64,000 bases of DNA from Rhina ancylostomus (lineage: Eukaryota), in NCBI GenBank assembly GCA_030265395.1, contig JARFYF010000056.1:17134107-17198106 (forward strand), read 5' to 3'. Made by a program: the position numbers. Of the stretch, positions 13,701-16,700 are shown in pieces. Each line of letters starts with the position of its first letter. Within the stretch, counting starts at the first letter, position 1.

Positions 13701-16700
13701 TTTCCTGAGAGGAAGCGAAAATGCTTTGGAAATAGCTTATTCATTTTATGGTATTCCTAAAATTCATAGTATGAATTTATTTCTGGAATCTAATTTTTTT
13801 TTAATGGGGTGAAGTTCAGGGTGAAATTCAAAATAGTTTATTGAGAGAAGATAGGGCTCAAAATAAGGCTAATTGTTAGTCCATGGTAATTGACATCAAA
13901 ACAGTTTGAGAACTGTTTTATTATTATTTCCAATTAACAGATGTCAGGGAGATTCTAGCAACAGTTGTGGAACGTGATGGGTCATAATTTGTTTTTCTAA
14001 CTGAGGTTTGACTACATCCAGAAGACTTACTAGTGAATGCAAATCTAAGTGTAATGTGAAAATAGAAGCAATTTTACATATTACCTTAAATTAGAGACGG
14101 CTGAGTGTTACTGGAAATAGAAGTTGTGTTAAATAGGTAAATTTTATTATTTCTATTCTTGGGCCCTTTAATTTACAAAAACTTAACTGAAGTTAACATG
14201 AATTTAATGAGTATATTTTTGTTTCATTGGTTTCACGGAGCAGTTGATACTAATTAGAATGTATTTTATTCAATGTGTCCTCCCCAAAGACTATTTTTAA
14301 CTTGCTTTTTTAAAAATGGTTGTTACAGTATTTACTTTATTCAATTTTTTGATAATTAAACAAATTGTCATTAAATTTTAAGTCTAGACTTATTTTATGG
14401 ATGTAACTGCAATTTTCAAAATGTATTAAGTTAATCAGTCATGTATATTATGAATTTATTTGTTGGCATATAACCGTATAAAACAATGAACCAATGATGC
14501 GTAATTTGTAAAATGGTGATTCATTCTTTAGAATAACAGATTGATGGTCCATTCTGATTTTAAATTTGGTAGATGCTTGAAAGGGAATTCCAAGCTGTTT
14601 AGTTCATGAAGCACAATTTTAAAACAAAAATTCTGCTTGTGCTTTCTGGAGAAATGTCAGTGGTCTCAATGTGTAATCTAAATTTTAATTATCTCAAACA
14701 TACAGGGAGGGGAACATTTGAGTTGGAATGAAAGTTAAAAATTACGCAATGGTGAAAAGTCCAAGCAGTGGTGTGGCAAGGATACCATTCAGATGATGAC
14801 AGTAATTAAAATTGTGCATCATGTTACTGTTAGAATTTTATGATGTTTAAGTATGCAAGCTTAGATAGCAGTTTGTGATTTTTTTTGTTCTCTCTGTTGT
14901 AGAATAATTGTTTTCTGTATTAGAATTTGACACAGATATAACTCCTTGCTCACTTATAAATAGCATACTGATTTTACTGTTAGACAATATGTGGGCGGGA
15001 AGGGAAATAAAAATATTTCATANNNNNNNNNNNNNNNNNNNNNNNNNNNNNNNNNNNNNNNNNNNNNNNNNNNNNNNNNNNNNNNNNNNNNNNNNNNNNN
15101 NNNNNNNNNNNNNNNNNNNNNNNNNNNNNNNNNNNNNNNNNNNNNNNNNNNNNNNNNNAATTTTGCAGTGCAGGTGTTTTATATACTGCGCCACTGGAAA
15201 ATTGCACAAAACAAGGTCAGGGTGGGGTTAGTTATTGTTTTAGTAGTTGTGTTGGGATGTAATTTGAATATTCTAATTTAAGTTTATAAAAGTGCACAAC
15301 TGCAGTTAATTCAAATAAACATAATATTTTTAAAAAGTACCTTTGCTAACAATTGTGTTACTGATGGTTTTCATGACAGAAATTAGATCTGAGCAAATCC
15401 TCCATTTCTAATACAAATAAGGATTGTGGAACTAATCTGTTTGCCTAAGCACAAATGACAAGTTTCCCAAAACTGAGGAGGCCTTAATAAAAAATAAATT
15501 TAGACTTTTGATTTCAGTGATGGAGTGCAGAGAAACAAATTACAAAATTGGCTTTGTAAGGTGCACTTTAATAACAATATAATAATAAGAATTTTATAGT
15601 GAAATATCTGATTTTTATACGGAATTCATTTTGTGTGAATTGTTTTGTAATTATTTAGTAAATATTCTGTTTATCAAACAGCACCAATCATCATGTCTTC
15701 ATTCCGTAAAACCAAACTACAGGTATTGTGTATGTGTGGAATACAGTGTGATTGCCTATATTAACTGATGTGTATTGCGGTAACATGACTAGAAGGTCAA
15801 TATATTGGGTGATGCATGTAGCATGCTTTTACAGACACATTTTACATGCGATGTAACTGATTTCAGAAGTGATTTGAAAGTCACATTTGCATCCTTATTT
15901 GCTCTGAGAACTCTTCTTCTAACTGCCTTTCTTCAATTAATTACTGTTTACAGCAGAAATTCTCAATTGAAATATGGCAGCTGACTACGTTTGTTTTTGC
16001 AAGGACTATGGTGTGGAAACTGACATGTCCCTACCTCAGTATCAAAGTCCTATCTTGATCTTGATGATGTTCTAAAAGGTTATCATTTAATATGTGTTTC
16101 AATTAACTCAACACTCTAAAATAGTAATAGTTAGATTACTTAATTCTCAAAAGGAACCTTTTATATAGAAGCATGGTCTATTTACAAATTTAAACTTAAT
16201 TTCAGATTAACATGGCAGGTATTGGTTACTGATTGATGCAGCTTTTAAAATGCACACATTGGCAGGTGTGTTGCTGATAAGATAAAGAAGAATCCAGGAT
16301 TACCAAATGGGGAATTTGCTGTTTACAAAACATTATTCTTCTGCAGTCTGGACACTTTTCAAGAAAACAAAACTAGACTGTAATTGGCATGTACTGACAT
16401 CATTCAATAATGTTTCTCTAAGGTTATTATAGATAGAATTATAAATAGAATTCTGTGTAGGATTAATCTTTTAAACTTGGTTGCCTTTTCGTAAACCAAA
16501 GCTTGTACAGAATACTTTCTGTACGTGCAAACAATTCAGTTGAAACTTTGTAATTTATTTCAGCCCCCTGGGGCAGTCTGATGCCCAGCTGGCTTGTAGA
16601 TAAATTGATTAGTTTTAGTTTATCAACCCACGTTTATCCTTGGTCTTCATATTGAACAGGAGTTTAAAATTTACTAATTTTTTTAAAAGCTAGGGTATGA

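What the first reader, a model, noticed from the sequence alone, without database searches (positions are those of the whole stretch)
15682..15830. Hidden intron-1 exon adds a basic N-terminal extension MSSFRKTKLQK to alpha-II spectrin
Seen: a 41-nt segment flanked by cag| and CAG|gtattg, with an ATG at 15693 (A at -3). Its 10 codons end in phase 0 and join AAA-ATG of exon 2a to give MSSFRKTKLQK-MDSTGVK. Downstream lie a UG-rich tract, TGCATG (15813-15818) and GCATG (15821). Known: RBFOX sites downstream of an exon promote inclusion in neurons and muscle, and the alpha-spectrin N-terminus is the tetramerisation site. Inference: a tissue-regulated exon switches the start codon and adds an 11-aa basic peptide beside the tetramerisation helix. 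Some vertebrate SPTAN1 annotations may already list a short N-terminal extension, so novelty needs checking.
Basis: partly seen in the sequence, partly recalled or inferred. Interest (0 to 1): 0.7.

Follow-up and report, generated by a model that had tools for sequence, protein, structure and literature searches.

The report
Conserved alternative spectrin start exon
A 41-base exon in the first intron of a cartilaginous-fish alpha-II spectrin gene matches an alternative protein start that gene models of many other vertebrates already list, so it looks real but is not new, and its function is unstudied.

Summary
The bare pattern (AG, ATG, open frame, GT in phase 0) is not unusual: intron 1 holds 1,495 such segments. 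What makes this one credible is homology. Its peptide MSSFRKTKLQ is the best of 127,996 six-frame positions in the window when scored against the N-terminal extensions of nine named SPTAN1 proteins, and 1 of 200 shuffles reached that score. The same extension (MLSSFRKVKVQK and variants) heads named RefSeq/UniProt SPTAN1 models of birds, mammals, squamates, coelacanth, frogs, axolotl, paddlefish, eels, danionins and a cichlid.

So this is the orthologue of an already annotated alternative 5' coding exon, here in a cartilaginous fish (closest protein: shark SPTAN1, 90.4%). The three shark models I saw lack it.

RBFOX-regulated, tissue-specific inclusion is untested. Two GCATG lie within 110 nt downstream, which is locally uncommon (0.7% of such stretches), but no vertebrate DNA or RNA-seq was available. 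I found no paper on the exon. The window is not human.

The parts
12766..12903 (+). 3' part of exon 1 (5' untranslated), followed by donor GTATGT at 12904
   Evidence: sequence; tblastn of the N-terminus of Mustelus asterias SPTAN1 X1 (P0317) aligns residues 3-47 to 12766-12900 (69% identity, E 3.6e-14). The window has two in-frame stops there, so it is untranslated here. The upstream ATGs at 12725 and 12779 open short frames that end within exon 1 (read).
15680..15681 (+). Candidate acceptor AG, preceded by TTCTGTTTATCAAAC (10 of 15 pyrimidines). A second possible acceptor would start the exon at 15659.
   Evidence: Either acceptor gives the same start codon, so protein homology cannot choose between them.
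15682..15722 (+). Alternative 5' coding exon (41 nt): an 11-nt leader plus 10 codons, MSSFRKTKLQ, ending in phase 0
   Evidence: It is the top six-frame hit of the window against annotated SPTAN1 N-terminal extensions, and it is single-copy in the window.
15693..15695 (+). Upstream in-frame start codon (A at -3, T at +4)
   Evidence: In the frame that continues into it, exon 1 is open from 12747 and holds no ATG (ORF 12747..12932).
15723..15728 (+). Donor GTATTG. Consensus-like at -3..+3 (CAG|GTA) and off consensus at +4..+6 (consensus recalled).
15723..15762 (+). G+T-rich tract directly downstream of the donor (70% G+T)
   Evidence: 4% of 40-mers of the window reach this value.
15813..15825 (+). 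TGCATG (15813-15818) and GCATG (15821-25), 91-103 nt downstream of the donor. These are candidate RBFOX sites.
   Evidence: 65 GCATG on this strand of the window (1.04 per kb). Two or more occur in 0.7% of 110-nt stretches. Function not tested.
21679..21755 (+). Exon 2, with the canonical start ATG at 21682 (AAA ATG G). It encodes K then MDSTGVKILDSADDIQERRQQVLD.
   Evidence: matches residues 3-26 of PDB 3F31_A, 'Spectrin alpha chain, brain' (E 3.8e-07).
22630..22792 (+). Exon 3 (rest of the N-terminal helix and start of repeat 1)
   Evidence: matches 3F31_A residues 28-81 (E 1e-24). Pfam Spectrin repeat at 28 bits, just under its 29.9 cut-off for this short piece.

Best explanation
The segment 15682-15722 is the cartilaginous-fish orthologue of a conserved alternative 5' coding exon of SPTAN1 (alpha-II spectrin). 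The exon lies in the intron between the untranslated exon 1 and the first coding exon.

When it is in the mRNA, its AUG (15693) is the first in-frame start, 33 nt ahead of the canonical AUG. The protein then gains ten exon-encoded residues plus the lysine of exon 2, with net charge +4, in front of the N-terminal single helix. That helix pairs with the C-terminal two helices of beta-spectrin to make tetramers.

Shown: the sequence anatomy, the frame, and the homology of the peptide to extensions annotated in other vertebrates.

Inferred:
- The exon is spliced and translated in this species.
- It is a cassette (exon 1, this exon, exon 2) rather than a separate first exon. I put this at about 0.55 against 0.3.
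- Because its AUG has a weaker context (T at +4) than the canonical one (A at -3, G at +4), leaky scanning may give both protein forms from one mRNA.
- The tail is a flexible basic appendage that tunes tetramer formation or adds a contact such as acidic lipids or a kinase site at the conserved SSFRK core. This last step is speculation.
For:: AG/GT borders, ATG, phase 0, and exon 2 starting AAA ATG.

the peptide is the best of 127,996 six-frame positions against nine annotated extensions (38 against 30), and it ends exactly at the donor; 1 of 200 shuffles reaches 38.

41 named SPTAN1 proteins, out of 319 stored proteins that carry the N-terminal anchor, have an upstream peptide scoring at least 20 against the window peptide.
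- Birds: MLSSFRKVKVQ|K
- Mammals, including rat X11, horse and guinea pig: MLSSFRKRRVQ|K
- Squamates: MLSSFRKVRVQ|K
- Coelacanth X1/X9: MLSSFRKVKAQ|K
- A frog, paddlefish, eels, Danio/Danionella and a cichlid carry more diverged forms.
- Axolotl (score 19) and Xenopus laevis X5 (score 18) fall just below that line.

exons 2 and 3 encode the alpha-II N-terminal fragment solved as 3F31. One search also shows that erythroid alpha-I chains (1OWA, 8IAH) have nine more residues ahead of the equivalent of Met1, so extra residues at this end occur naturally in the paralogue.

PMC8456306 (passages read): the single N-terminal helix (R0) of alpha-spectrin pairs with the two C-terminal helices of beta-spectrin. 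Exons 2-4 encode R0-R1 in mouse Spta1 and Sptan1.
Against: There is no transcript or protein evidence for this species. No RNA-seq and no vertebrate genome DNA could be searched, so splice-site and intron conservation are untested.

The three shark SPTAN1 models I saw (Scyliorhinus torazame X1 and GCB73840, Mustelus asterias X1) do not start with this peptide. The three cyclostome models do not either.

Most database representatives start at the canonical Met: 61 of the 119 printed.

Most of the supporting models are automatic predictions, and I cannot see what transcript support each had.

The donor lacks G at +5. The same pattern without homology is common.

The function of the tail is unknown, and the PDB alignments give no homology between it and the alpha-I N-terminus.
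Confidence: 0.85

Rival explanations
1. It is an alternative first exon with its own tissue-specific promoter, not a cassette exon. Transcription would start shortly upstream of 15693 and the AG at 15680 would be irrelevant. The protein outcome is the same.
For: Protein homology fixes only the ATG and the donor, not the 5' border. Some models of other species carry further in-frame residues upstream of the Met: Xenopus laevis X5, Lerista and Lamprotornis. Those fit a longer 5' part. The acceptor tract is only moderately pyrimidine-rich.
Against: There is no CpG island here: GC is 0.285 in 14001-16000 against 0.377 in the 2-kb bin that holds exon 1. An AG with 10 of 15 pyrimidines sits 11 nt upstream of the ATG. 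A masked or gap stretch at 15023-15158 hides part of the upstream region.
Confidence: 0.3
2. It is a chance open frame (pseudo-exon) that is never spliced. The resemblance to annotated extensions would be coincidence.
For:: 1,495 segments in intron 1 fit the bare pattern, 150 of them with modest splice criteria; one of 200 shuffles reached the same peptide score somewhere in 64 kb. No expression data were available.
Against: The hit is the best in the window. It also lies in the right intron, on the right strand, starts with Met and ends at a GT in the phase that exon 2 needs. The shuffle test counted none of those conditions. The SSFRK core is identical in tetrapods and coelacanth.
Confidence: 0.05
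3. The exon is real but acts at the RNA level, as a 5' leader variant that changes translation efficiency or start choice. The added peptide would have no function of its own.
For: The peptide is short and precedes the region solved in 3F31, whose construct begins at the canonical Met. The upstream AUG has the weaker context. Ray-finned fish versions differ considerably from the tetrapod version.
Against: Length (9-11 residues), the initial Met, the basic character and the [ST][STK]F.K core are kept from cartilaginous fish to mammals. That fits selection on the peptide. No nucleotide-level comparison was possible.
Confidence: 0.1

Closest known systems
N-terminally extended SPTAN1 isoforms in RefSeq/UniProt gene models. 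Examples: Latimeria chalumnae X1 XP_005992143.1 and X9 XP_014341661.1, Cavia porcellus X1 XP_063100202.1, Rattus norvegicus X11 XP_038961712.2, Tiliqua scincoides X2 XP_066466623.1, Polyodon spathula X1/X2, Anguilla anguilla X1/X2, Danio aesculapii X10 (names and accessions).
   Same: They carry a 9-12-residue basic extension that starts with Met and ends in Q/K followed by K/R and the canonical MD/ME start. The core SSFRK is identical in the tetrapod and coelacanth versions and in the window.
   Different: The window version is one residue shorter than the tetrapod one (MSS... against MLSS...) and has T and L where birds have V and V. It comes from a cartilaginous fish, a group in which the three models I saw lack it. 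I could not see the exon structure or transcript support behind the database models.
Erythroid alpha-I spectrin (SPTA1) N-terminus, PDB 1OWA, 3LBX, 8IAH
   Same: It has nine extra residues ahead of the position that equals Met1 of canonical alpha-II, in front of the same tetramerisation helix.
   Different: It is constitutive, not alternative. In 4 of 4 PDB alignments the extension residues 1-9 stay unaligned, so homology of the two tails is not supported.
RBFOX-activated cassette exons (downstream (U)GCAUG enhancers; position rule recalled from the literature, not read here)
   Same: TGCATG and GCATG lie 91-103 nt downstream of the donor, after a G+T-rich tract.
   Different: No evidence of binding, conservation or tissue pattern. 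The only RBFOX-linked SPTAN1 exon I met in print is exon 24, and it was the exception that did not follow RBFOX2 knock-down (PMC8686545, passage read).
Hair-cell-specific Sptan1 exon reported by ASCOT (PMC6952364, passages read)
   Same: It is an alternative exon of the same gene with narrow cell-type use in a ubiquitously expressed gene.
   Different: The text gives neither its position nor its sequence. Figure 1b is not held and the supplement is closed, so I cannot say whether it is this exon.

Membership tests
SPTAN1 (alpha-II spectrin) locus | N-terminal partial repeat followed by spectrin repeats, with an SH3 domain inserted mid-protein | tested here: met
   exons 2 and 3 match 3F31 'Spectrin alpha chain, brain'. 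Pfam Spectrin repeat above its cut-off in 4 of 6 exon peptides (a fifth, exon 3, scores 28 against a 29.9 cut-off), and SH3_1 (34.5 bits) in 48746-48889; 25 collinear exon matches between 21682 and 63904.
SPTAN1 (alpha-II spectrin) locus | Closer to alpha-II than to erythroid alpha-I | tested here: met
   30.8 bits to alpha-II (3F31) against 21.6-22.3 to alpha-I chains. alignments: 86.4 bits to 3F31 against 57.0 for the matching stretch of alpha-I; 90.4% identity to Scyliorhinus torazame SPTAN1 X1 over 1,347 aligned residues.
Conserved alternative N-terminal exon of vertebrate SPTAN1 (MLSSFRK type) | Encodes Met, then a short basic peptide with a [ST][STK]F.K core, ending in phase 0 before K/R-M-D/E | tested here: met
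   MSSFRKTKLQ scores 33-37 against the bird, mammal, squamate and coelacanth versions and 20-27 against frog and ray-finned fish versions.
Conserved alternative N-terminal exon of vertebrate SPTAN1 (MLSSFRK type) | Lies between the untranslated first exon and the first coding exon, on the gene's strand, with AG and GT borders | tested here: met
   The position in the other species' genes was not visible to me.
Conserved alternative N-terminal exon of vertebrate SPTAN1 (MLSSFRK type) | Spliced into mRNA and translated in this species | not testable with these tools
   No RNA-seq, EST or proteome of a vertebrate is searchable here. The species is not identified.
RBFOX-activated exon | (U)GCAUG within a few hundred nt downstream of the exon | tested here: met
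   two sites at +91 and +99. Two or more occur in 0.7% of 110-nt stretches of the window.
RBFOX-activated exon | Motif conserved in orthologous introns; inclusion high in brain or muscle and dependent on RBFOX | not testable with these tools
   No vertebrate genome collection and no expression data were available.

The most novel reading that the evidence does not exclude
An alternative N-terminal form of alpha-II spectrin, kept since before cartilaginous and bony fishes split, carries a basic, possibly phosphorylatable tail next to the tetramerisation helix. The tail would change tetramer assembly or membrane attachment in particular cells. It could be the unplaced hair-cell-only Sptan1 exon of ASCOT. 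No published study that my searches reached has examined this form.
Probability: 0.25. Interest if true: 0.55.

Novelty: already known. Interest (0 to 1): 0.3.

Why it matters
Alpha-II spectrin is the sole alpha subunit of non-erythroid spectrin, and its N-terminus is where tetramers form. A second, conserved start would therefore be a cheap lever on a central cytoskeletal interaction.

The exon is already in automatic gene models of many vertebrates, so finding it here is not a discovery. Two things are added. The exon reaches back to cartilaginous fishes. And none of my literature searches turned up a paper on it, so the functional question appears open.

Tried and rejected
- **Exon 2 as a protein query:** I used exon 3 instead, which covered only proteins of 96-2,000 aa.
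- **Identifying the species:** no stored protein exceeds 90.4% identity, so only 'cartilaginous fish' can be said.
- **Homology between the extension and the longer alpha-I N-terminus:** not supported. The alignments start at query residues 10-12 in 4 of 4 PDB hits.
- **Other N-terminal variants in databases** (endings such as FGFQK, FCFQK, VLFQK): I read these as read-through of the pyrimidine tract and CAG acceptor of exon 2, not as further exons. This is inference. In the window the same read-through hits a stop (TAA CAG AAA).
- **Long N-terminal extensions of the Mustelus and Scyliorhinus models:** these are translated exon 1. The window has two stops there.
- **Repeat origin of the exon:** none, it is single-copy in the window.
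- **Rfam:** no family in the window.
- **Pfam on four intronic ORFs that looked like retroelement remnants:** nothing.
- **Literature:** the string MLSSFRK is in 0 papers. 'SPTAN1' plus 'alternative first exon' gave 4 papers, of which one passage was read. 'SPTAN1' plus 'N-terminal extension' gave 5 papers, of which passages of two were read. None deals with this exon, and the rest were seen as listings only. Searches found nothing on it, and one search returned no SPTAN1 paper among its 15 listed rows. One search failed on a term's syntax and was not repeated.
- **Not attempted:** structure prediction, complex prediction and any search with the joined N-terminus. Those would need the joined exon model, which was left out.

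Full report
**Observation.** AG at 15680-15681 precedes a 41-nt segment, 15682-15722. ATG at 15693 has A at -3 and T at +4. Ten codons give MSSFRKTKLQ and end on a whole codon. GTATTG follows at 15723. Exon 2 begins at 21679 with AAA ATG GAT, so the frame runs on into K, M, D, S, T, G, V, K. Exon 1 ends at 12903 before GTATGT. TGCATG (15813-15818) and GCATG (15821-15825) lie 91-103 nt downstream of the donor. The first 40 intronic bases are 70% G+T. As the operators asked, I did not build, translate, search or fold the joined exons. The join is argued from phase alone, and every search used single exons or database proteins.

**The locus.** The window is not human, and I do not take it for human. 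GC is about 0.37. Twenty-five collinear exon matches to SPTAN1 proteins run from 21682 to 63904. Exon peptides carry Pfam Spectrin repeats and an SH3 domain. Exons 2 and 3 match the solved alpha-II N-terminal fragment 3F31 better than the erythroid alpha-I chains. The closest stored protein is Scyliorhinus torazame SPTAN1 X1, at 90.4% over 1,347 residues. No other stored protein exceeded 87.6%. The end of exon 1 aligns with the translated 5' exon of the Mustelus asterias model (69%, E 3.6e-14) but carries two in-frame stops. The source is therefore a cartilaginous fish other than those two genera. The species stays unknown.

**Chance or homology.** Intron 1 (8,775 nt) has 1,495 AG..ATG..GT phase-0 segments of 20-200 nt, and 150 pass modest splice-site criteria. 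So the pattern alone proves nothing.

The decisive result came from a protein search with exon 3. Among the named hits, the SPTAN1 model of the swift Chaetura pelagica starts MLSSFRKVKVQK before MDPSGVK. A search with the first 40 residues of that protein among long proteins listed 120 of 277 hits. Of those 120, 21 carry this kind of extension and 61 start at the canonical Met. The rest have other short leaders.

I then scored the extensions of nine named proteins against every six-frame position of the window. The candidate was first of 127,996 positions (38, next best 30) and ended exactly at the donor. One of 200 block-shuffled windows reached 38 anywhere. That test does not credit the correct intron, strand, Met or GT.

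**Distribution.** Across all stored proteins with the N-terminal anchor (319 of 354), 41 have an upstream peptide scoring at least 20 against the window peptide, and all 41 are named records.
- Birds: Chaetura, Zonotrichia, Coturnix, Lamprotornis.
- Mammals: Cavia, Rhinopithecus, Ovis, Equus, Hipposideros, Myotis, Lemmus, Chionomys, Rattus X11, and a partial Cebus entry.
- Squamates: Tiliqua, Lerista, Anolis.
- Latimeria (X1 and X9), the frog Gastrophryne, Polyodon, eels (Anguilla, Conger lies just below), Danio aesculapii and Danionella, and a cichlid.
- Axolotl (score 19) and Xenopus laevis X5 (score 18) are just under the line.

The core SSFRK is identical from the window to mammals. Ray-finned fishes have SKFLK, STFCK or PSSRK.

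Against this reading, 0 of 3 shark models and 0 of 3 cyclostome models seen carry the extension. Most supporting records are automatic predictions whose transcript support I cannot see. The search clusters proteins at 90% identity, so absence from a representative says little.

**Architecture and regulation.** Protein homology fixes the ATG and the donor but not the 5' border. AG at 15680 (10 of 15 pyrimidines upstream) or another AG that would start the exon at 15659 would both serve. A separate first exon cannot be excluded either. A masked or gap stretch at 15023-15158 hides part of the upstream region, and I left it alone. In the frame that enters the exon, exon 1 is open and has no ATG. 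The two ATGs at 12725 and 12779 open short frames that close within exon 1 (read). The donor is consensus-like up to +3 and off consensus at +4 to +6 (consensus recalled). The upstream AUG has the weaker context, so some ribosomes may scan on to the canonical AUG 33 nt later (inference).

The GCATG pair is locally uncommon: two or more occur in 0.7% of 110-nt stretches, against 1.04 GCATG per kb overall. That fits the recalled rule that downstream RBFOX sites promote inclusion. But the count was made after the fact, and neither conservation nor expression could be tested, because no vertebrate genome or RNA-seq collection is available here.

**What the peptide would do.** The alpha-spectrin N-terminal single helix (R0) joins the two C-terminal helices of beta-spectrin into a triple helix. 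That contact is what makes tetramers. In mouse, exons 2-4 encode R0-R1 (PMC8456306, passages read; PMC9082959, listing and start of abstract only).

The extension sits directly in front of that helix. The solved alpha-II fragment 3F31 begins at the canonical Met, so no structure shows the tail. Erythroid alpha-I has nine more residues at the same end. Extra residues there are therefore compatible with tetramer formation, but the two tails do not align. A flexible tail of charge +4 could alter association with beta-spectrin, touch acidic lipids, or be phosphorylated at the conserved serines. It would also change the N-terminal residue pair from M-D to M-S. These functional ideas are inference, not results.

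**Literature.** I found no paper on this exon.
- The string MLSSFRK occurs in none of the searched texts.
- Searches pairing SPTAN1 with 'alternative first exon', 'N-terminal extension', hair cells, Srrm4 and RBFOX gave only papers on other exons or none. One search, which added start-codon and promoter terms, listed no SPTAN1 paper among its 15 rows.
- The passages I read concern the 20-aa insert after the SH3 domain (PMC3411717) and exon 24 (PMC8686545).
- ASCOT reports a Sptan1 exon used only by cochlear and vestibular hair cells (PMC6952364; echoed in PMC10018040). Its position is only in a figure and a supplement that I could not see.

**Left open.** These points remain untested: transcript evidence in this species, the exon's annotation in this species, intron conservation, and the identity of the ASCOT exon. 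Anything that needs the joined N-terminus (fold, complex, exact-match look-up) is also open. The closed collections (metagenome and viral contigs) would not bear on a vertebrate gene.

**Verdict.** This is a real-looking, deeply conserved alternative 5' coding exon of SPTAN1. It is already present in gene models of many vertebrates, and here it is seen in a cartilaginous fish. The novelty is not. The RBFOX story is untested.

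Noticed in passing
window 12766-12903: Exon 1 is homologous to the stretch that the Mustelus asterias X1 model translates as a 48-residue N-terminal extension (and, by eye only, the Scyliorhinus GCB73840 model as a 33-residue one; it did not align). The window has two in-frame stops there. Those shark extensions are therefore probably translated 5' UTR, not protein.
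   Followed up: partly
stored proteins (e.g. P0131, P0132, P0137, P0141, P0228); window 21670-21681: Many UniProt/Ensembl SPTAN1 entries of birds and fishes start with short leaders ending FGFQK, FCFQK or VLFQK. This looks like translation of the pyrimidine tract and CAG acceptor of exon 2 (intron read-through) rather than a further exon. In the window that read-through meets TAA just before CAG AAA.
   Followed up: partly
window 47950-48510 (-) and 36504-36903 (-): Intronic ORFs of 186, 125 and 84 aa recall, from memory, the C-terminal and reverse-transcriptase parts of LINE elements common in cartilaginous fishes. Pfam found nothing in them, so this stays a recollection.
   Followed up: partly
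window 15023-15158 and eight other N runs: Nine runs of N total 1,324 bases. One lies 524 nt upstream of the candidate exon and limits any reading of a possible promoter there.
   Followed up: no
PDB 8iah_8 residues 7-32: One erythroid alpha-I spectrin chain reads SQA then MDSGGPK at residues 7-16. It keeps an internal Met-Asp at the place of the alpha-II start, preceded by nine residues. Whether the alpha-I first coding exon is related to the alternative alpha-II exon was not resolved.
   Followed up: partly
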